DNA of 64,000 nucleotides, from positions 38,818 through 102,817 of the forward strand of contig JAWCLG010000002.1 in the NCBI GenBank assembly GCA_038851075.1, given 5' to 3'. This DNA is from Candidatus Hadarchaeales archaeon (GTDB lineage Archaea; Hadarchaeota; Hadarchaeia; Hadarchaeales; Hadarchaeaceae). Positions within the stretch are counted from its first letter, which is position 1; every line of letters starts with the position of its first letter. The position numbers and the translations under genes were made by a program. The notes beneath the pieces were generated by a model. It searched no databases. It was not told the DNA's origin and saw only the letters and a list, made by a program, of their open reading frames with translations. This document shows positions 23,530 to 54,431 of the stretch, piece by piece.

Positions 23530-24266
23530 TCAACGGATGCGTATTTCCTCCTCAGCTCCAGCGCAAGCCTTAACTCATCCTCCATAATATCCCCGCGGAA
23601 AATCTCTGCCTCCATGACCTCCATGAACCCCTGAATCATGTGCTCCCTCACCTCCTTAATGTCAGGCCTTCTTTTGATCTCCCTTTCCACAGTGGTTACT
23701 CTATCGTAAACGCTCTCTATCCCCTTATCCGATATTTTTGCTCCACCGACCCTTAGTACCTCAAACATCCTCCTCACATCTGGAGAAATGAGTATAGTTC
23801 CGTGCTGCAGGACGCTCCCCCACCTCCGCGTCTGCGCGCTCCCAGAGATCTTCCTTCCTTTCACCTGGATGTCGTTTACTGGTCTGAAATCCGCCTCTAC
23901 TCCCATCCTCCTGAGGCCGGACACCAGCCCCCCGCAGATGATCTCATAGGACTCTATTATGTCCCTCGGCACGTTCTCCTCACTGCACACAAAGCTGTAC
24001 GTGAGTTCACCTTCGGAATCGTGAAAGACTGCTCCACCGCCTGTGATTCTCCTAACTACCTGCATGTGGTATCTGCCAGCTGCTTCAAGGTCGACCTCTC
24101 TGGCCAAACTCTGGAAAAAACCTATGGAAACAGCGGAGGGGGTCCATGTCCAGAATCTCAGGGTGCTCGGTGACCTTCCATTGGAGTTGAGCCTGAGCAG
24201 TGCTTCATCTATGGCCATGCTCGTGAAGGCATCGTCCCTGCGCATCGGCAAAACCCTAATCCTCAT
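23511..24266 (-). CDS. lplA: Lipoate-protein ligase A, catalytic N-terminal domain (split LplA)
   Basis: BPL/LplA fold motifs RRITGGGAVFHD and KISGSAQ. Only 251 aa; the C-terminal domain is encoded separately upstream. Confidence 0.85.
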   Translation of the reverse strand: MRIRVLPMRRDDAFTSMAIDEALLRLNSNGRSPSTLRFWTWTPSAVSIGFFQSLAREVDLEAAGRYHMQVVRRITGGGAVFHDSEGELTYSFVCSEENVPRDIIESYEIICGGLVSGLRRMGVEADFRPVNDIQVKGRKISGSAQTRRWGSVLQHGTILISPDVRRMFEVLRVGGAKISDKGIESVYDRVTTVEREIKRRPDIKEVREHMIQGFMEVMEAEIFRGDIMEDELRLALELRRKYASVEWNAMR

Positions 24267-24549
24267 GGCTCCCAGCCGCCCTCATCACTGCCTCAACCCA
24301 GTGTTCAACGTCAACCATAGGCGTCTTGGCTCCGGTCCTCCCGTAAAATCTCCTCACGGCCTCCCTCACGGCCTCCCTCTCCACGGCCACGCCGATAAGT
24401 TCTCTCTCCAGCTCGAAAAGCGCCTCCTCAGGGTACATGAAGAAATCCCCGGTGATGGATACACGTGATATTCTGTTTTCCTCGATGCCCACTTCCACCC
24501 TTATCAGTCCCTTCGGGGCCTTGAAATCCGCCCGTCCCACTACTTCCAC
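24256..24549 (-). CDS. lplB: Lipoate-protein ligase C-terminal domain protein (LplB-like)
   Basis: The C-terminal portion VEVVGRADFKAPKGLIRVEVGIEENRISRVSITGDFFMYPEE matches the LplA C-terminal domain. The proposed GTG start at 24549 is preceded by a GGGAGG motif. The annotated ORF runs to 24813 and overlaps the ABC-2 permease gene. Confidence 0.55.
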   Translation of the reverse strand: MEVVGRADFKAPKGLIRVEVGIEENRISRVSITGDFFMYPEEALFELERELIGVAVEREAVREAVRRFYGRTGAKTPMVDVEHWVEAVMRAAGSHED

Positions 24550-25322
24550 CTCGTGAGTATTTCCTCCCTTCTGAAGGTCACCTTGCTCAGGAAAAAGAGC
24601 CCAGCATCCGCTAGCCCCAGCGCCGCCGCAAAGAGTCCGAGCGAGAGCGGGTTGAGGGAAATCGAACCAATCATGTACATCATGTAGAATGCGATGAACG
24701 GCAAAATCGGGATGGAGCCGATCTGCATTGCCGCCCTGACATCGCTCACCTTGGACGAAACGAAAACGCAGAACGAAACTGAAAGGAGGGCCATCAGCGG
24801 GCAGTAGACGCAAAGCACAGCTATGGAGAGGAGATTGGGCAGAAGCAGGTGCCCCAACGCCTGAAACGTGAGCACATCCACCACGACTGTGAGGCAGACG
24901 AAGGAGAAAACCGTGGCGAGCATTGCCGGAATGAAGGCACCCAGCATCTTCCCGGCGAGAATTTCCAAATCCGTGGCTGGGGTCGCCAGGAGCGGCTCCA
25001 GCTGCCTGTTGACCTTCTCCCCCACGAAGGTGTAGGATGCTATAACTGAAGGCACCATGACCGGGATGACCATGAAAAGCAGGAGAGTCATGTTGACCAT
25101 TGCCATTACCATTGCCTCTCTGTACGGAACACCTGCTGGGGCAAACGGCGGGAGCTCTTCACTGAGTGGCAACTCCATGTTCAAAACGGGATAGATGTAC
25201 ACGATCGGCAGGACAACGGAAAGCACAAGCGGCAGCACGACCATGCCGTAAATCACATATCTGTGTTTCCTCGCGCTCGCCATGTCCTTCTTCGCTATTT
25301 CCCAGACCCTATCTCTCCTCAT
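24540..25322 (-). CDS. ABC-2 type transporter permease
   Basis: Six TM segments. The likely start is MRRDRVWEIAKKD. The annotated N-terminal extension is Arg/Trp-rich. Confidence 0.8.
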   Translation of the reverse strand: MRRDRVWEIAKKDMASARKHRYVIYGMVVLPLVLSVVLPIVYIYPVLNMELPLSEELPPFAPAGVPYREAMVMAMVNMTLLLFMVIPVMVPSVIASYTFVGEKVNRQLEPLLATPATDLEILAGKMLGAFIPAMLATVFSFVCLTVVVDVLTFQALGHLLLPNLLSIAVLCVYCPLMALLSVSFCVFVSSKVSDVRAAMQIGSIPILPFIAFYMMYMIGSISLNPLSLGLFAAALGLADAGLFFLSKVTFRREEILTRWK

Positions 25323-26232
25323 TCCTTCCCACCAGCCTGAGGTAGACCTCCTCCAGGACGTTCGGCGGCCTCGTGACATACCTTATCCTCCCGCCCGCCC
25401 CCACCACAGCGCTGACTATGGAAGGATTCACCCTGTCCGGATCCTCCACCTCCACAAGCAGCCTGTTTCCCTCTGCGCTCACCCTCCCCACGCCCCTGAC
25501 CCTCTTCAGCGCCCCCACGAACCTCCTGGCCGGACCTTCCAGATGTATCTCCGTTTTGGACCTCCCAAACTGACGCTCCAGCTCCCTCGTGGAACCAACC
25601 GCCACCAGCCTCGTGTTCAGTATTGCCACGCGATCGCATAGTCTCTCGGCCTCGTATAGGTTGTGAGTACACATCATTATCGTTCTCCTCTCCCGCTTCA
25701 GCTCCTGCACGAAATCCCTGACTATCTTCGCAGCATCAGGCGAGAGCGAGGCTGTGGGCTCGTCTAGGAACAGCACCTCGGGCTCGTGAACCATTGCCCT
25801 TATGATCGCTATCTTCTGCTGCATGCCCTTAGAAAACCTCCCCACCGGCTCATCCCTCCTTCCCCACAGCCCGACCATCCTGAGCAGCTCCTCTATGCGC
25901 CTCCTTCTTTTGGCCTCCGGCACGCCGTACATCCTGGCGTAGAAATCTAGGTTTCTGTACGCGCTAAGCTCCGGGTACAGCCCGGGGTTCTCTGGAAGGA
26001 GCCCGATGATCTCCCTTATCCTCATCGACTCCATCCCTATTTCATGTCCGCCGACAAACGCCGTCCCGGATGTGGGCCTCAGCAGGCAGCAGAGCATCCT
26101 TACAGTGGTTGTCTTCCCGGCGCCGTTAGGGCCCAGAAGCCCGAATATCTCCCCCCTCCTCACCTGCAGCGTGAGATCCTCAACTGCGGTCGTGCCGTCA
26201 TATCTCTTGGTGAGACCCGCAAGTTCGACCAT
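25309..26232 (-). CDS. ABC transporter ATP-binding protein
   Basis: Walker A GPNGAGKTT, signature FSKGMQQK, Walker B LFLDEP. The likely start is MVELAGLTKRY. Confidence 0.9.
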   Translation of the reverse strand: MVELAGLTKRYDGTTAVEDLTLQVRRGEIFGLLGPNGAGKTTTVRMLCCLLRPTSGTAFVGGHEIGMESMRIREIIGLLPENPGLYPELSAYRNLDFYARMYGVPEAKRRRRIEELLRMVGLWGRRDEPVGRFSKGMQQKIAIIRAMVHEPEVLFLDEPTASLSPDAAKIVRDFVQELKRERRTIMMCTHNLYEAERLCDRVAILNTRLVAVGSTRELERQFGRSKTEIHLEGPARRFVGALKRVRGVGRVSAEGNRLLVEVEDPDRVNPSIVSAVVGAGGRIRYVTRPPNVLEEVYLRLVGRNEER

Positions 26233-26759
26233 CACTTCAGCTTTTCCAGCCAAGCGCTCACCATCCCCTCGTTCCTGTCGCACAGTATGATTTTCTTCAG
26301 GGCCTTTGGCCTGAACCCCCTAACCGCGGAGATCATTGCCTCAGCGGCAGAGGCAAACGAAAGCCCACCGACCCCTGTGCCCATTCCAGGGAACACAATG
26401 CTTTCCGCCCCGACCTCATCCGCACACCTCAGCGCGGCCAGGACAGCCATTCTCACCTTCTCCTGGGTTGTGGGCATCGCTGGCCTCTCCATGGTTGGAG
26501 CGTGTATCACCCATCTTGCGGTGAGCCTGCCCGCGGTTGTCGCAATCGCCCTGCCGACCGGAACCGGAGCATGCCTGAGCGCCTCCTTTTCTATAACCTC
26601 CCCACCCGCCCTCTTCAGTGCCCCGGCGGCACCGCCCCCCATGTACATCAGGCTATTCGCGGGGTTACATATCGCGTCCGCCTTCATTCCCGTAATATCT
26701 CCGGTGGTCGTTTCCACCGCAAATACGCCAATCCTGCACTTTTTCACGCCACTCATCAT
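26232..26759 (-). CDS. Macro-domain (ADP-ribose binding/processing) protein
   Basis: AICNPANSLMYMGGGAAGAL matches the macro-domain NAAN...GGGV motif. 175 aa. Confidence 0.85.
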   Translation of the reverse strand: MMSGVKKCRIGVFAVETTTGDITGMKADAICNPANSLMYMGGGAAGALKRAGGEVIEKEALRHAPVPVGRAIATTAGRLTARWVIHAPTMERPAMPTTQEKVRMAVLAALRCADEVGAESIVFPGMGTGVGGLSFASAAEAMISAVRGFRPKALKKIILCDRNEGMVSAWLEKLK

Positions 26760-26818
26760 TCTTTACCTAAAGCGTTCATAATTTTATTCTCACGCCCGAT
26801 AGTACTCTTGGTGAAAAA

Positions 26819-27160
26819 ATGAAAACGAGACTGAAAACGGTGCTTTTTGACTTTATCTTCGGCGGTCTCCTGGTTGCCGGCGCTCTGCTAGTGGCCGCGT
26901 TTCTCGGACCATCTGCCGGAGGCATCCTAGCCGGAGCTCCGATAAGAACAAGCGGAGTGATTCTATTGCAGTATCTCCACAAAGGACTGGAGTCAGCCGC
27001 GGAACTCACGAGGGGAGTGCTTCTAGCTATGATTGCAAACGTTGCATTCGCCCTCGTACTTTATCTAACGATGCCGAGATACGGGATAGTTGCCGGGTTT
27101 GCTGCTTCAGGGATTACATTTGCGGTTGCCGTGTCCGCGCTCAACATGCTGGTTCCGTGA
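26819..27160 (+). CDS. Small membrane protein, hypothetical
   Basis: 113 aa with four hydrophobic segments. Confidence 0.5.
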   Translation: MKTRLKTVLFDFIFGGLLVAGALLVAAFLGPSAGGILAGAPIRTSGVILLQYLHKGLESAAELTRGVLLAMIANVAFALVLYLTMPRYGIVAGFAASGITFAVAVSALNMLVP

Positions 27161-30975: not shown

Positions 30976-31812
30976 TTGGGTAGGGAAGTGTACTACCAAA
31001 GAATTGACGTAAAAAACGCCGTTTGTGGATATTCGACGTCTAGTAAGAGCTATGGGGTACGAGAGGGGGCTTTTTTTAATGCTAGAAAAAAGACATTTCA
31101 GAGGTACACTGAAACGATAGATGGGAAAAAACCAGTGGAGCTTACCCCATCAGAGGTTTCCAAGGCAGCCGAGGCAGGGGCAATAGCATTTTACTGTTCG
31201 TACTGGCTATACGACTGTAACGACTTTAGAGAACCGACCGGTAGAGATCTCGTTTGGGTTATCCGAATAGAGAAAGGGGACTTGGAGTTCGCGAAAAAGT
31301 TGACGAGAGCAGCCGCAGAGGCATTGTGGGAAGCAGGGGCGGAGCCTTTTGTAAAGTATTCTGGAGACCTAGGATTCGACATTATATTGCCTCTAGAAAG
31401 CATACCGTTCGAAGTCTGGCATGGAAATATAGACGCACTGGATGACCTTCAGGGTGAGCTTTCCGATGTCATAGTCAGCAGTATCCGCTCACGGCTAGGG
31501 CTGGTTGTAGAGGGAGACAGACACTCGTTTAAAATAAAAGAGGATGAAAAAACCTCCCTCCTCTCCGAACTCCGGGTGAAGCGAGGCCTTTTGCTTGCGC
31601 CGATGAGCATAAACCCGGAGACAGGGCTGGTTTCTGTCCCGGTGGATCCTAGGGAGCTAGATAATTTTACAATCTTTGACGCGAGCCCGTCTAAAGTCAT
31701 AGGCAAAATATGGAGATTCGGTTCTGGCCCGAGTTATGGTCTAATCAAATACGCGAAGCTTGGTCAAGTTCGATCTTTGGAGGATAATCAGTCAGAGGAG
31801 CAGGCGTTTTAG
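30976..31812 (+). CDS. PriS (AEP primase small subunit) homolog with divergent catalytic motifs
   Basis: EVYYQR matches the PriS YYRR motif and REGAFFNARKKTFQRY matches REFSF...RY. The C-terminal SINPETGLVSVPVD...LDNFTIFD matches the PRIM1-like SIHPKTGRISVPID...FDPF. Motif I reads LVWVIRIE in place of LVFDID. Motif II reads YSGDLGFD in place of YSGRRGVH. 278 aa. Confidence 0.7.
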   Translation: MGREVYYQRIDVKNAVCGYSTSSKSYGVREGAFFNARKKTFQRYTETIDGKKPVELTPSEVSKAAEAGAIAFYCSYWLYDCNDFREPTGRDLVWVIRIEKGDLEFAKKLTRAAAEALWEAGAEPFVKYSGDLGFDIILPLESIPFEVWHGNIDALDDLQGELSDVIVSSIRSRLGLVVEGDRHSFKIKEDEKTSLLSELRVKRGLLLAPMSINPETGLVSVPVDPRELDNFTIFDASPSKVIGKIWRFGSGPSYGLIKYAKLGQVRSLEDNQSEEQAF

Positions 31813-31834: not shown

Positions 31835-32458
31835 GTGGAGGCCCTTATCTCAAGAATAAACGAGATCCGGTGTCAACATAAGGAAGCGAGAAAAAGGATA
31901 CGGGAATTTATAAACATGCAGAAATGTGGGAACGAGGATTGGTTTTCCGAACTGTGTTTTTGTATTTTGACCGCAAATTCCACGGCGGAGTCTGGGATTC
32001 GATCGCAGAGGCGGATAGGGACAAAAGGATTTCTTACTCTTTCAGAGAAGCAGCTGGCAAAAGAACTTAGGAAATCTAAGCATAGGTTCCCAAACGTTAG
32101 GGCAAAATTCATAGTGGAGGCGAGAAAGCACATGAAAATCAAGGACGCCGTAATGAATGCCGGCAGCCCACAAAAAGCGCGCGCTTGGCTTGTGAAAAAT
32201 GTAAAGGGTATCGGCTGGAAGGAAGCGAGTCATTTTTTGAGAAATGTGGGATATCTAGACCTTGCCATTCTGGACAGACATGTGTTGAGAATTCTTCGTG
32301 AATATGGCATAATAAAGGAGATTCCGCGCCATCTTTCAGAGAAAAGTTATCTCGAAATAGAGGAAAAAATGAAGGAACTGGCAAATAGAATGAAAATGAG
32401 TCTAGGGGAGCTGGATCTGTATTTGTGGTGTATTAAAACCGGAAGGATTCTCAAGTAG
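31835..32458 (+). CDS. ogg: N-glycosylase/DNA lyase, archaeal Ogg2-type (HhH-GPD)
   Basis: VKGIGWKEASHFLRNVGYLDLAILDRHVLR. 207 aa. Confidence 0.85.
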   Translation: MEALISRINEIRCQHKEARKRIREFINMQKCGNEDWFSELCFCILTANSTAESGIRSQRRIGTKGFLTLSEKQLAKELRKSKHRFPNVRAKFIVEARKHMKIKDAVMNAGSPQKARAWLVKNVKGIGWKEASHFLRNVGYLDLAILDRHVLRILREYGIIKEIPRHLSEKSYLEIEEKMKELANRMKMSLGELDLYLWCIKTGRILK

Positions 32459-33311
32459 TCTTTATGAGATGCGTGCCGTCGCAGGTACCCCCGGTGTTGA
32501 GGTGTGGCAGGCCCTCCCTGCACGATGAGAACGTGACACCAGTTTCAAGGCAGGCGGCCCTGACAGAACGCATGAGATCCTCTCTAATTTTCTTAGGCAG
32601 GTACCATCCGCGTCTTTTCTCTCCTTTGTTGAAGTACAGGTCCCGTAGCTTTAGCGCCTCATCAGGAAAAGCGGATGAGAATCTACGCCATCCATCGAGC
32701 CTTGGTTTGAATGTGGATGCAGTTACATGAGAAACACCGGCTTCGGAGGCAACCTCAACTATCTCCCTTACCTCGTCATCATTGACGAATGGAATTATCG
32801 GATCGAGCCGTAGAGAAGTTGGCACACGTTTAGAGAGAGTTTTGATAGTGGCCAGCCTTAATGATGGCTTAGGTGCACCTGGTTCTAGCCTGCGGGCCAG
32901 TGAGTCATCAATAGTTGTGACGGTGAAACTTACAACGCATGGAATTTTTTTAAGCACGTCGAAATCACGAGCCACAATGTTTGATTTCGTAATTATCTGT
33001 ACCCTGCATCCCTTTTTAGAGATGATCTCGAGACATTTTCTTGTGAGCCCGAGTTTTGCTTCAACTGGGGGATACGGGTCCGAACTGTTTGACATGCTTA
33101 TTATGGTATTTGAATCCATTTTTTCGATATCACGTTCTACCTTAGAAATCAGGTCCTTTTTTTCTCTTGCCTCGAATGCATTCGGTATATATGAGGAGAT
33201 ATAGCAGTAAACGCACGAGTGGGAGCACCCGGTATATGGATTCAGACCGTATTTTTTGGGACAGGTACAGAGGGGGTCTTTCCAAGGATCAAACTCTCTA
33301 ACTACTGCCAT
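32451..33311 (-). CDS. Radical SAM DNA-repair-photolyase-like protein (SplB/COG1533 family)
   Basis: The start MAVVREFDPWKDPLCTCP...LNPYTGCSHSCVYCY matches the SplB-like signature. The annotated 36-aa N-terminal extension to 33419 lies in GC-rich, likely non-coding DNA. Confidence 0.8.
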   Translation of the reverse strand: MAVVREFDPWKDPLCTCPKKYGLNPYTGCSHSCVYCYISSYIPNAFEAREKKDLISKVERDIEKMDSNTIISMSNSSDPYPPVEAKLGLTRKCLEIISKKGCRVQIITKSNIVARDFDVLKKIPCVVSFTVTTIDDSLARRLEPGAPKPSLRLATIKTLSKRVPTSLRLDPIIPFVNDDEVREIVEVASEAGVSHVTASTFKPRLDGWRRFSSAFPDEALKLRDLYFNKGEKRRGWYLPKKIREDLMRSVRAACLETGVTFSSCREGLPHLNTGGTCDGTHLIKTT

Positions 33312-33330
33312 TTTCTCAGAAAAACGATAA

Positions 33331-33611
33331 CACGCGCCGAGATAAAGGCCCCCACATCCCTCCAGACCCCGGGCGATGTAGCCCAGCCGAACCGCCAAGG
33401 GCAGCCCGCCGAACCACATCGTTCCGACCTTTTCAGATCGTGTGGTTACCCTTTCGAGTTACCACGCCGCGGCCCTGAGGAGACTCCGAACAAGTCTTGT
33501 CAGCCTGCTGTTCAGAACACCGCAGATCGGCCAATCTGCAGTGCCCCTACCAGTGGGATCCACCAAGACCCATTCTAGAGACCTTCCGGATCGCCCTCTC
33601 GGCGCGTTTTT
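33331..33611 (+). ncRNA. Candidate structured ncRNA, GC-rich, about 280 nt, with 5'/3' terminal helices and an oligo-U tail; possibly SRP (7S) RNA-like
   Basis: The block is much more GC-rich than its flanks. CGCGCCGAGA near the 5' end pairs with TCTCGGCGCG near the 3' end. An inner pair GGGCGAT/ATCGCCC also forms. The 3' end is followed by TTTTTT. The strand assignment is tentative. Confidence 0.3.
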
Positions 33612-33709
33612 TACTCTATCTTCTTGGTTAAAAATTTTCCGTTGTGTATCCCTGTTCACAAAGGGTTAAATATGGGTCTCCACTAATCTCAAAAAACGGG
33701 AGGAGCCTC

Positions 33710-33847
33710 ATGCCAAGGTGCTGCCCCTCTTGCTATTTGTATGATGAATGCGAAAAAAGGGGAGAGTGCTGCGAGGAATGCGATTTTTACAGCAGGGGCA
33801 AGTGCATGTTAATGGACAAGGAATCTTATGGAATACTCGACAAATAA
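33710..33847 (+). CDS. Small Cys-rich protein of 45 aa
   Basis: MPRCCPSCYLYDECEKRGECCEECDFYSRGKCMLMDKESYGILDK has eight Cys. A GGGAGG motif precedes the ATG. Confidence 0.4.
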   Translation: MPRCCPSCYLYDECEKRGECCEECDFYSRGKCMLMDKESYGILDK

Positions 33848-54302: not shown

Positions 54303-54431
54303 GGGGCTGTGGTGTAGCTTGGTATCACGGCAGGCTCCAGTGGATGATGTGGGTCTTCTGACTGATGGATGATGACCCACTGGAGCCGAAGAGACCTGCA
54401 AACCCGGGTTCAAATCCTGGCAGCCCCACCA
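54303..54431 (+). tRNA. tRNA-Trp (anticodon CCA) with a 53-nt intron and encoded CCA
   Basis: Acceptor GGGGCTG/CAGCCCC. The anticodon stem GCAGG...CCTGC is interrupted after position 37. The T-arm is GGGTTCAAATCC. The intron spans about 54341-54393. Confidence 0.8.
54341..54393 (+). ncRNA. Box C/D sRNA-like element inside the tRNA-Trp intron
   Basis: Box C AUGAUGU (54344-54350), D' CUGA (54358-54365), box C' AUGAUGA (54369-54375). The guide CCCACUGGAGCC is complementary to the tRNA-Trp anticodon region. Confidence 0.6.

What the first reader, a model, noticed from the sequence alone, without database searches (positions are those of the whole stretch)
33331..33611. GC-rich structured RNA candidate between the SplB-like gene and a Cys-rich peptide gene
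A block of about 280 nt is much more GC-rich than its flanks. It contains only short ORFs of compositional origin. It has nested complementary ends: CGCGCCGAGA with TCTCGGCGCG, and GGGCGAT with ATCGCCC, followed by TTTTTT. The size, the end-pairing and the GC enrichment fit an SRP (7S) RNA-like or another stable ncRNA. The annotated N-terminal extension of the radical SAM gene falls inside it.
Basis: seen in the sequence. Interest (0 to 1): 0.55.

Follow-up and report, generated by a model that had tools for sequence, protein, structure and literature searches.

The report
New structured RNA gene in Hadarchaeales
The GC-rich block is a real, separately transcribed gene for a roughly 280-nucleotide folded RNA.

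Summary
Window 33333-33606 (62% GC; window mean 49%) encodes a structured non-coding RNA on the MINUS strand. The window is from a Candidatus Hadarchaeales MAG.

- 25 more loci from Hadarchaeales metagenomes and MAGs carry full-length homologues, down to 67% identity.
- The RNAalifold consensus has 93 pairs: 97.5% of cells pair, against 36-48% when partners are slid. 25 pairs show compensatory double changes, against 13.4±2.0 in shuffles.
- 21% of paired cells are G·U, which fixes the strand.
- An archaeal BRE/TATA lies 22-23 nt upstream of the terminal helix, and most homologues have an oligo-T run just after it.
- No reading frame is open in all homologues.
- Three lineages keep the RNA without an intact downstream radical SAM gene, so it is not a leader or an N-terminal extension.
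- Rfam 15 gives no match for the window copy or for nine further homologue-bearing loci, even at E≤10.
- The SRP helix-8 motif and RNase P CR-V are absent. The CR-I-like GGAAGGUC occurs only in the window's clade.

Best reading: a new, lineage-restricted, trans-acting stable RNA whose 5′ and 3′ ends are clamped by the terminal helix. Its function is unknown; I infer a protein-bound or self-docking scaffold.

The parts
33627..33643 (-). Archaeal promoter: BRE plus TATA box (AACGGAAAATTTTTAAC on the minus strand), ending about 20 nt upstream of P1 in this window (22-23 nt from the end of the 8-bp TATA element as delimited in the report).
   Evidence: An A/T-rich BRE/TATA element sits at the same distance in all homologues, for example GAAAGTTATTTATGG or AAGAAAGTCTTTTATGG. 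That it works as a promoter is inferred from the consensus and spacing; it was not measured.
33320..33607 (-). Predicted primary transcript of about 285 nt: start at or next to 33607/33606, end in the T-run at 33324-33320.
   Evidence: MFE -153.9 kcal/mol, z = -8.8 on the minus strand, against -97.4, z = -3.95 on the plus strand. nhmmer and the alignment show homology over exactly this span. The ends are inferred; no RNA data are available.
33597..33606 (-). P1, 5' strand (CGCGCCGAGA).
   Evidence: Pairs with 33333-33342. 10 bp, 98.2% of cells paired; column pair 14/304 shows UA/CG/UG. In L034 pair 21/297 is G-C where the others have A-U or G-U.
33333..33342 (-). P1, 3' strand (UCUCGGCGCG).
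33593..33596 (-). P1b, 5' strand (GGGC). This 4-bp helix is separated from P1 by an invariably 3-nt bulge on the 3' strand.
   Evidence: Pair 25/290 is A-U in 12 and G-C in 10 distinct sequences; 100% of cells pair.
33343..33349 (-). P1b 3' strand (GCCU, 33346-33349) and the 3-nt bulge (UUA, 33343-33345). The same 3' segment can instead pair with GAAGGUC of the 5' junction (alternative helix P2').
   Evidence: P2' (columns 35-41 with 287-293) is 98.7% paired. The two helices exclude each other and the data do not choose between them.
33576..33592 (-). Conserved 5' junction GAUCCGGAAGGUCUCUA (family consensus AAACCGGAAGRGCCUCUA).
   Evidence: Near-invariant although RNAalifold pairs only 3 weak base pairs within it. 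Its GGAAGGUC resembles RNase P CR-I in the window clade only.
33488..33575 (-). Domain I, one long irregular hairpin. Basal 12-bp helix: 33564-33575 with 33488-33499. Invariant core: GUGGAUCCCACUGGUA (33548-33563) opposite GAACAGCAGGCUGA (33500-33513). Variable distal hairpin (33514-33547) with the apical loop GGCC.
   Evidence: The basal and distal helices covary (helices 4 and 5 each have 5 pairs with double changes). The core is invariant in homologues found by synteny as well as those found by pattern. The loop is GGCC in 22 of 24 aligned sequences and AGCU in two unrelated ones, L028 and L032.
33359..33481 (-). Domain II, a four-way junction. Stem: 33467-33481 with 33359-33372. Hairpin IIa: 33442-33465, GNRA-type loop and a 3x3 internal loop. 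Hairpin IIb: 33425-33440, GAAA/GUGAA loop. Hairpin IIc: 33375-33420, long and G·U-rich.
   Evidence: The stem has 5 pairs with double changes, IIb has 2 and IIc has 3. Four of the five pairs that are G·U in every sequence lie in IIc; the fifth is in the Domain I core.
33320..33324 (-). Oligo-T (TTTTT on the minus strand), the probable archaeal terminator, 9 nt after P1.
   Evidence: A run of four to seven T within about 10 nt after P1 in most homologues. L003/L025 and L029 lack a clear run. Function is inferred.
32451..33311 (-). Neighbouring SPL-type radical SAM gene (not part of the RNA). The true start is the ATG at 33311 (MAVVREF...). The longer ORF reaching 33419 is an artefact that runs into the RNA gene.
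   Evidence: An identical 286-aa NCBI protein, P0001. Pfam Radical_SAM. Homologues start MDVIR/MAVVR.

Best explanation
This is a separate gene for a stable, highly structured non-coding RNA of about 275-285 nt. It is transcribed from the minus strand of the window (about 33607 to about 33320), and it founds an RNA family that no existing model recognises.

Shown:
- It is conserved across Hadarchaeales lineages, including Hadarchaeaceae.
- It is non-coding.
- Covariation supports the fold: a terminal helix P1/P1b joining the two ends, a long irregular hairpin with an invariant core (Domain I), and a four-way junction with two GNRA-type loops and a G·U-rich arm (Domain II).
- The G·U content fixes the strand.
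- It persists where the downstream gene is lost.

Inferred:
- Archaeal RNA polymerase starts 22-23 nt downstream of a conserved BRE/TATA, almost exactly at the first base of P1, and stops at the oligo-T run just after P1. P1 therefore clamps both termini and would protect the RNA in a thermophile.
- The RNA acts in trans, either as a protein-bound scaffold (RNP) or as a compact self-docking RNA.
- The invariant non-Watson-Crick core of Domain I (a GUA/GAA loop-E-like 3x3 loop and a CUGA/GUGGAU K-turn-like element) is the likely protein or tertiary contact site.
- The GNRA-type loops of IIa and IIb are the likely docking elements.

Its cellular task is unknown.
For: - Fold energy: z = -8.8 on the minus strand against -3.95 on the plus strand.
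- Homologues: 4 loci found through synteny with the radical SAM gene, 21 through a DNA pattern, and L034 and L130 again through synteny. Identity to the window falls to 67%, while the neighbouring radical SAM proteins are about 60-70% identical.
- Structure: 93 pairs, 97.5% of cells paired against 36-48% when partners are slid by 1-3 columns. 25 pairs have double changes against 13.4±2.0 in shuffles, and 0 of 500 shuffles reach any of the five measures.
- Strand: 436 of 2041 paired cells are G·U and 5 pairs are G·U in every sequence. Only 76.7% would pair on the complement.
- Promoter and terminator geometry is conserved.
- No frame is free of stops in all homologues, and lengths differ by non-multiples of 3.
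- Independence from the downstream gene: L016, L019 and L029 keep the RNA next to a convergent Ogg gene with no intact radical SAM gene.
- No known family.
Against: - There are no expression data, so the transcript, its ends and its stability are inferred.
- The function is not established, and the RNP or self-docking role rests on motif resemblance only.
- The invariant Domain I core gives no covariation. Two of its blocks were the search pattern, so ascertainment bias applies, although six synteny-found homologues carry them too.
- The family was found only in the part of Hadarchaeales that shares this synteny. L006 lacks it at the syntenic site, and L005, L035 and L036 showed no copy. This fits a lineage-restricted RNA, but it also means no complete genome was scanned.
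Confidence: 0.72

Rival explanations
1. A very divergent, new structural type of RNase P RNA. There is a precedent: type T of Thermoproteaceae was invisible to the Rfam archaeal model.
For: - The size, the closed P1, the two-domain layout and the GNRA loops are all compatible.
- In the window clade the 5' junction reads GGAAGGUC (compare CR-I GGAAAGUC). It can pair with GGCCUUUAUC just before the P1 3' strand (compare GGCUUAUC), giving a P4-like helix that is 98.7% paired across homologues.
- PMC3579882 reports that type T RNAs score 'not detected - 10.2 bits' with RF00373, so a negative Rfam result alone is not decisive.
Against: - The CR-I-like string is not conserved; other clades have GGAAGAGCC, GGAAGGGCC or GGGAGGGCU.
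- P2' has no conserved bulged U.
- The stretch just 5' of the P4-like 3' strand is ACAGAA/CR-V in every RNase P RNA and is among their best conserved parts. Here it is the least conserved part of the molecule and never matches.
- There is no P3 hairpin and no CR-II/CR-III-like S-domain.
- RNaseP_arch, RNaseP-T, the bacterial and the nuclear models give nothing at E≤10 in 10 homologues.
- The RNA is missing from the syntenic site of a sister lineage.
Confidence: 0.07
2. The archaeal SRP (7S) RNA.
For: The length is about 280-300 nt, the ends pair as in archaeal helix 1, the block is GC-rich, and there is a CC-GGAA-GG element in the 5' junction.
Against: - There is no Archaea_SRP or other SRP hit, even at E≤10.
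- The helix-8 signature was found in my two recalled positive controls but not family-wide. It matches only 7 sequences of one sub-clade, at a covarying position of hairpin IIa.
- The IIa loop is GNNA rather than GNAR, and the IIc loop is variable.
- The fold is a three-way core with a four-way junction, not a rod with an Alu end and an S end.
Confidence: 0.02
3. A cis-acting 5' leader or riboswitch that controls the downstream SPL-type radical SAM gene.
For: - It is on the same strand as the gene and only about 20 nt upstream in the window and most loci.
- L003/L025 lack a clear T-run, so read-through there is conceivable.
Against: - L016, L019 and L029 retain a well conserved RNA with no intact downstream radical SAM gene; a convergent gene follows instead.
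- L006 has the radical SAM gene without the RNA.
- P1 closes the RNA into a self-contained unit followed by oligo-T in most homologues, and no alternative terminator/antiterminator arrangement is evident.
- The RNA is better conserved than the protein.
Confidence: 0.04
4. Not an RNA gene: the N-terminal coding extension of the radical SAM protein, or a compositional artefact.
For: Gene callers did extend the ORF into this block in several records: 310-aa P0003, and 322-329-aa ORFs in the window, L011 and L032.
Against: - Every frame has stops in most homologues.
- Substitutions are compensatory in helices.
- The NCBI protein identical to the window's is 286 aa.
- The extension sequences differ between clades.
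Confidence: 0.01

Closest known systems
Large orphan ('ornate') structured ncRNAs of bacteria: OLE, GOLLD, ROOL, raiA, HEARO (from my own knowledge; all are Rfam families)
   Same: All are long, intricately folded RNAs with multi-helix junctions, GNRA-type loops and invariant internal loops. They have strong covariation, a narrow phylogenetic range and no obvious function from gene context. The palindromic apical loop here recalls the RNA-RNA contacts reported for some of them.
   Different: No sequence or structure match to any of them. This RNA is archaeal, shorter (about 280 nt), single-copy at a fixed chromosomal site and not linked to mobile elements. Self-association is only a hint here.
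Archaeal RNase P RNA (types A, M, T; RF00373, RF02357)
   Same: Comparable size, ends closed by a terminal helix, two structural domains, GNRA loops, and a possible long-range helix next to P1 that has CR-I/CR-V-like letters in the window clade. A whole type has been missed by Rfam before (PMC3579882).
   Different: No conserved CR-I, no CR-V/ACAGAA, no bulged U in the P4-like helix, no P3 and no CR-II/III S-domain motifs. The domain order and junction types differ, and no model hits.
Archaeal SRP (7S) RNA (RF01857)
   Same: Length, GC enrichment in a moderate-GC thermophile genome, paired 5' and 3' ends, polymerase signals typical of stable RNA genes.
   Different: No helix-8 SRP54 site, no helix-6 GNAR loop, no Alu-domain features, a different overall fold and no model hit.
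Hgc RNAs found as GC-rich islands in AT-rich hyperthermophiles (Klein, Misulovin & Eddy 2002; from my own knowledge)
   Same: The same discovery signal, a GC-rich island between genes in a thermophilic archaeon. Some of those RNAs also remained orphans.
   Different: No homology: the HgcC/E/F/G models are in Rfam and none hit. Most Hgc RNAs are shorter, and several turned out to be H/ACA guides. This RNA has no H/ACA or C/D layout.

Membership tests
SRP (7S) RNA | Match to the Rfam SRP covariance models (Archaea_SRP and the rest of the clan) | tested here: not met
   No hit at gathering score in the window. None at E≤10 on 651 nt or 297 nt, and none at E≤10 in nine further homologue-bearing loci.
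SRP (7S) RNA | Helix 8: a closed GNRA tetraloop followed within a few nt by the AGCA-containing loop (the SRP54 M-domain site) | tested here: not met
   My regex finds the motif in recalled E. coli 4.5S and M. jannaschii S-domain controls. It does not find it in the window, and matches only 7 of 26 homologues, at a variable position of hairpin IIa. The motif definition is from memory.
SRP (7S) RNA | Rod-like helix 5 with an Alu end (helices 3 and 4) and an S end (helices 6 and 8) | tested here: not met
   The consensus fold is P1 plus one long hairpin plus a four-way junction.
SRP (7S) RNA | Binding of SRP19/SRP54 | not testable with these tools
   Needs biochemistry.
RNase P RNA | Match to the RNaseP_arch, RNaseP-T, RNaseP_bact_a/b or RNaseP_nuc models | tested here: not met
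   No hits at E≤10. This is not decisive alone, because type T was missed by RF00373.
RNase P RNA | P4 helix formed by conserved CR-I (GGAAAGUC-like) and CR-V (ACAGAA..GGCUUA), with a bulged U | tested here: not met
   A nested helix P2' exists. However, the CR-I-like letters occur only in the window clade, CR-V is absent from all 26 sequences, the helix has no conserved bulged U, and the segment 5' of its 3' strand is the most variable part of the RNA. The consensus strings are from memory.
RNase P RNA | P3 hairpin between P2 and P4, and an S-domain with CR-II/CR-III | tested here: not met
   Only an unpaired segment of about 10 nt lies between P1 and P2'. No comparable motifs appear in Domain I or II.
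RNase P RNA | Pre-tRNA 5' leader cleavage; no other RNase P RNA in the genome | not testable with these tools
   Whole genomes could not be scanned. The 64-kb window and 145 kb of related loci contain no SRP or RNase P RNA.
cis-regulatory leader / riboswitch | Constant association with a downstream gene on the same strand | tested here: not met
   L016, L019 and L029 have the RNA without an intact radical SAM gene. L006 has the gene without the RNA.
K-turn (L7Ae-binding) containing RNP | C-helix, 3-nt bulge, then tandem G·A/A·G, with the other strand reading ..GA before the C-helix | tested here: inconclusive
   GUG-GA-U (33562-33557) opposite CUGA (33503-33500) fits, apart from a C·C at position 4b·4n. 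All positions are invariant, so covariation cannot decide. This was read by eye; the K-turn rules are from memory.
BHB-processed / circular archaeal RNA | Bulge(3)-helix(4 bp)-bulge(3) flanked by two helices | tested here: not met
   A 3-nt bulge followed by a helix of exactly 4 bp is conserved (P1/P1b). The second bulge is not followed by a helix: only C31-G287 pairs consistently. At best this is a relaxed half-motif.

The most novel reading that the evidence does not exclude
This is a new class of large 'ornate' archaeal RNA that works without being a variant of any housekeeping RNP. It could be a self-associating RNA, dimerising through the palindromic apical loop of Domain I. That loop is GGCC, and it is replaced by the equally palindromic AGCU in two unrelated sequences. 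Alternatively it could be a switch or ribozyme that uses the two mutually exclusive helices, P1b and P2', which compete for one 3' segment.
Probability: 0.2. Interest if true: 0.88.

Novelty: categorically new. Interest (0 to 1): 0.7.

Why it matters
Almost all large orphan structured RNAs known so far are bacterial. Archaea have very few stable RNAs beyond rRNA, tRNA, SRP RNA, RNase P RNA and guide sRNAs. A roughly 280-nt RNA with a covariation-supported multi-domain fold, its own promoter and a conserved chromosomal position in Hadarchaeales would add a new RNA class to an uncultured, deep-subsurface lineage. It points to an unrecognised RNP or RNA-based activity. In practice it also corrects gene calls: several public records extend the radical SAM ORF into this RNA gene.

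Tried and rejected
- **Rfam.** I scanned at gathering score and at E≤10: the window, the RNA alone, 145 kb of related loci and 9 small homologue loci. The only result was a sub-threshold hairpin resemblance to DUF3800-VI (23.5 bits against a gathering score of 35), which I reject as a short G·U-rich hairpin match.
- **Chance pattern hits.** Four metagenome hits (L021, L022, L023, L026) were matches inside high-GC coding DNA.
- **Viral contigs.** The specific pattern found nothing. A looser IIc pattern found 93 loci that proved to be a conserved phage protein gene and random hits, none homologous.
- **Sister lineages.** Loci L005-L007, L035 and L036 showed no RNA by nhmmer.
- **hsp20-like neighbour.** Searching its homologues reached no more distant lineages.
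- **Literature.** Searches for Hadarchaeota or Hadesarchaea together with RNase P or ncRNA found nothing relevant.
- **Tertiary pairs.** A naive all-against-all column covariation scan gave 570 'hits' and is dominated by phylogeny. I therefore rely only on stacked helices, and I treat the P1b/P2' choice and the GGCC-to-AGCU change as hints.
- **Single-sequence MFE details.** I rejected these because they are not conserved.
- **Permuted SRP or BHB circularisation.** I considered this idea; the motif is incomplete.

Full report
**What is in the window.** Positions 33333-33606 form a 274-nt block of 62% GC. The flanks are 41-46% GC and the window mean is 48.8%. A tRNA gene with a 57-nt intron elsewhere in the window points to an archaeon. 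The neighbouring radical SAM protein is identical to a 286-aa protein of a Candidatus Hadarchaeales MAG.

**Strand.** The minus strand folds to -153.9 kcal/mol (z = -8.8 against dinucleotide shuffles). The plus strand reaches only -97.4 (z = -3.95). In the consensus structure 436 of 2041 paired cells are G·U, and 5 pairs are G·U in every sequence. On the complementary strand only 76.7% of cells would pair, against 97.5% on the RNA strand. The RNA is therefore on the minus strand, the same strand as the radical SAM gene. The plus-strand TTTTTT at 33607-33612 is not its terminator.

**Homologues.**
- Four syntenic loci were reached through radical SAM homologues of 67-72% identity. They carry the block at about 87-90% identity while the flanks diverge.
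- One metagenome scan with two invariant blocks returned 25 loci. 21 of them are homologous over the full length by nhmmer, and most of these are much more divergent (120-155 bits against about 330).
- L034 and L130 were found through synteny, independently of the pattern, and have the RNA too.
- Named relatives are Hadesarchaea B3_Hades and Candidatus Hadarchaeaceae.
- The least similar pairs are 67% identical.

**Structure.** RNAalifold on 24 sequences gives 93 pairs. On the 22 distinct sequences:
- 97.5% of cells pair, against 36-48% when the 3' partners are slid by 1-3 columns.
- 25 pairs have changes on both sides, against 13.4±2.0 in shuffles.
- None of 500 shuffles reaches the observed value on any of the five measures.

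The architecture, in window coordinates, is:
- **P1**: 33597-33606 with 33333-33342.
- **Bulge and P1b**: an invariably 3-nt bulge, then the 4-bp P1b (33593-33596 with 33346-33349). One of its pairs is A-U in 12 sequences and G-C in 10.
- **5' junction**: GAUCCGGAAGGUCUCUA, conserved and largely unpaired.
- **Domain I** (33488-33575): a covarying 12-bp basal helix, an invariant irregular core (GUGGAUCCCACUGGUA opposite GAACAGCAGGCUGA), and a variable covarying distal stem capped by GGCC.
- **Domain II** (33359-33481): a covarying stem that opens into a four-way junction with three hairpins. IIa has a GNRA-type loop and a 3x3 internal loop. IIb has a GAAA/GUGAA loop. IIc is long and G·U-rich.

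**A second possible helix.** GAAG(R)GCC of the 5' junction can pair with the same 3' segment that P1b uses. This helix, P2', has 7 bp and is 98.7% paired. P1b and P2' exclude each other and the data do not choose between them. With only about six clades, isolated column pairs covary easily: a naive scan gave 570 such pairs. I therefore treat this as a hint of alternative conformations, not a finding. The same caution applies to the apical loop. It is GGCC in 22 of the 24 aligned sequences and AGCU in L028 and L032, whose nearest relatives (92% and 95% identical) have GGCC. The double change keeps the loop self-complementary. That fits loop-loop dimerisation, and it also fits pairing with the GGCY 3' segment.

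**Gene signals.** On the RNA strand every homologue has a BRE/TATA-like element: AACGGAAAATTTTTAAC in the window at 33643-33627, and GAAAGTTATTTATGG or AAGAAAGTCTTTTATGG elsewhere. It ends 22-23 nt before P1, the usual archaeal spacing, so transcription should start at or next to the first base of P1. Most homologues have four to seven T within about 10 nt after P1. In the window this is TTTTT at 33324-33320, and three homologues lack a clear run. These roles are inferred from sequence; no expression data were available.

**Not coding and not a leader.**
- Every frame on both strands has stop codons in most homologues, and lengths differ by 1-2 nt.
- The ORF that extends the radical SAM gene to 33419 is an artefact. 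The NCBI protein starts at the ATG at 33311. Similar over-extensions exist in other public gene calls.
- L016, L019 and L029 keep a well conserved RNA with no intact radical SAM gene downstream; a convergent Ogg gene follows.
- L006 has the Cys-rich peptide gene and the radical SAM gene adjacent with no RNA between them.
- The RNA is therefore an independent gene, gained or lost within Hadarchaeales.

**Comparison with known families.** Rfam 15 gave nothing for the window at gathering score, nothing real at E≤10 for the region or the RNA alone, and nothing for nine further homologue-bearing loci.

For SRP RNA:
- The helix-8 signature was found in my recalled E. coli and M. jannaschii controls. 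It is absent from the family, apart from a chance match in one sub-clade.
- The fold is not a rod.

For RNase P RNA I took the idea seriously for two reasons. The window's GGAAGGUC and GGCCUUUAUC resemble CR-I and CR-V. Type T RNAs also escaped the Rfam archaeal model (PMC3579882). Against it:
- The CR-I-like letters exist only in the window clade.
- CR-V/ACAGAA is absent from all 26 sequences.
- The stretch where CR-V should lie is the most variable part of the RNA.
- There is no bulged U, no P3 and no CR-II/III.

The motif definitions are from memory, so I keep about 7% for a radically new RNase P type.

**What it most likely is.** It is a new, lineage-restricted, trans-acting stable RNA. 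The clamped termini, two GNRA-type loops, an invariant non-Watson-Crick core and conserved G·U pairs are the marks of a compact folded RNA or a protein-bound scaffold. The core includes a GUA/GAA loop-E-like element and a CUGA/GUGGAU K-turn-like element, both read by eye. The closest analogues are the bacterial orphan 'ornate' RNAs rather than any archaeal housekeeping RNA. Its cellular role is unknown, and the decisive tests are listed separately.

**Limits.**
- No complete genome could be scanned for canonical SRP or RNase P RNAs.
- No transcript data exist here.

Noticed in passing
window 33710-33847 (+): A 45-aa Cys-rich peptide gene (MPRCCPSCYLYDECEKRGECCEECDFYSRGKC...) is transcribed divergently from the RNA. 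Its DNA is conserved in L001-L004, and it is also present in L006 where the RNA is absent. It has no Pfam match.
   Followed up: partly
window 54303-54428 (+): A tRNA gene with a 57-nt intron, found by Rfam (49.1 bits) but missed by ARAGORN. This is consistent with an archaeal genome.
   Followed up: no
window 23800-27000: A 3-kb stretch of 60-68% GC, higher than the RNA block. It is protein-coding: ABC transporter ATPase and permease, macro domain, lipoate-protein ligase. High GC alone therefore does not mark RNA genes in this genome, and the stretch may be a compositionally foreign island.
   Followed up: partly
window 30976-31812 (+), and homologues in L002, L003, L016, L017, L029-L032, L130: A conserved protein of about 270-280 aa with no Pfam domain (MYYQRxDVRQAI...) always lies near the Ogg / radical SAM / RNA cluster. 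It probably also lies in L006 (a 266-aa gene with no Pfam hit at the same position; not compared), where the RNA is absent. Function unknown.
   Followed up: no
L016 13497-13526; L019 1285-1542; L029 2334-2434: Some lineages have lost or degraded the SPL-type radical SAM gene next to the RNA. L019 keeps only a C-terminal remnant ORF.
   Followed up: partly
L003 3001-3933, L011 3912-4898, L032 13050-14024, window 32451-33419: ORFs and public gene calls (for example the 310-aa JGI 'DNA repair photolyase' P0003) extend the radical SAM gene 24-40 codons upstream into the RNA gene. These are probably mis-annotated starts.
   Followed up: yes
L005 3322-3442: In a Hadarchaeum lineage that lacks the RNA at this locus, a 5S rRNA gene lies upstream of the DUF488 / radical SAM pair.
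   Followed up: no
window 33333-33606 (-): GGAUCC, UCUAGA and GGCC: Three short palindromes sit in conserved segments predicted to be unpaired or irregular. Only the GGCC loop shows a change that keeps it palindromic. The others may be coincidence.
   Followed up: partly
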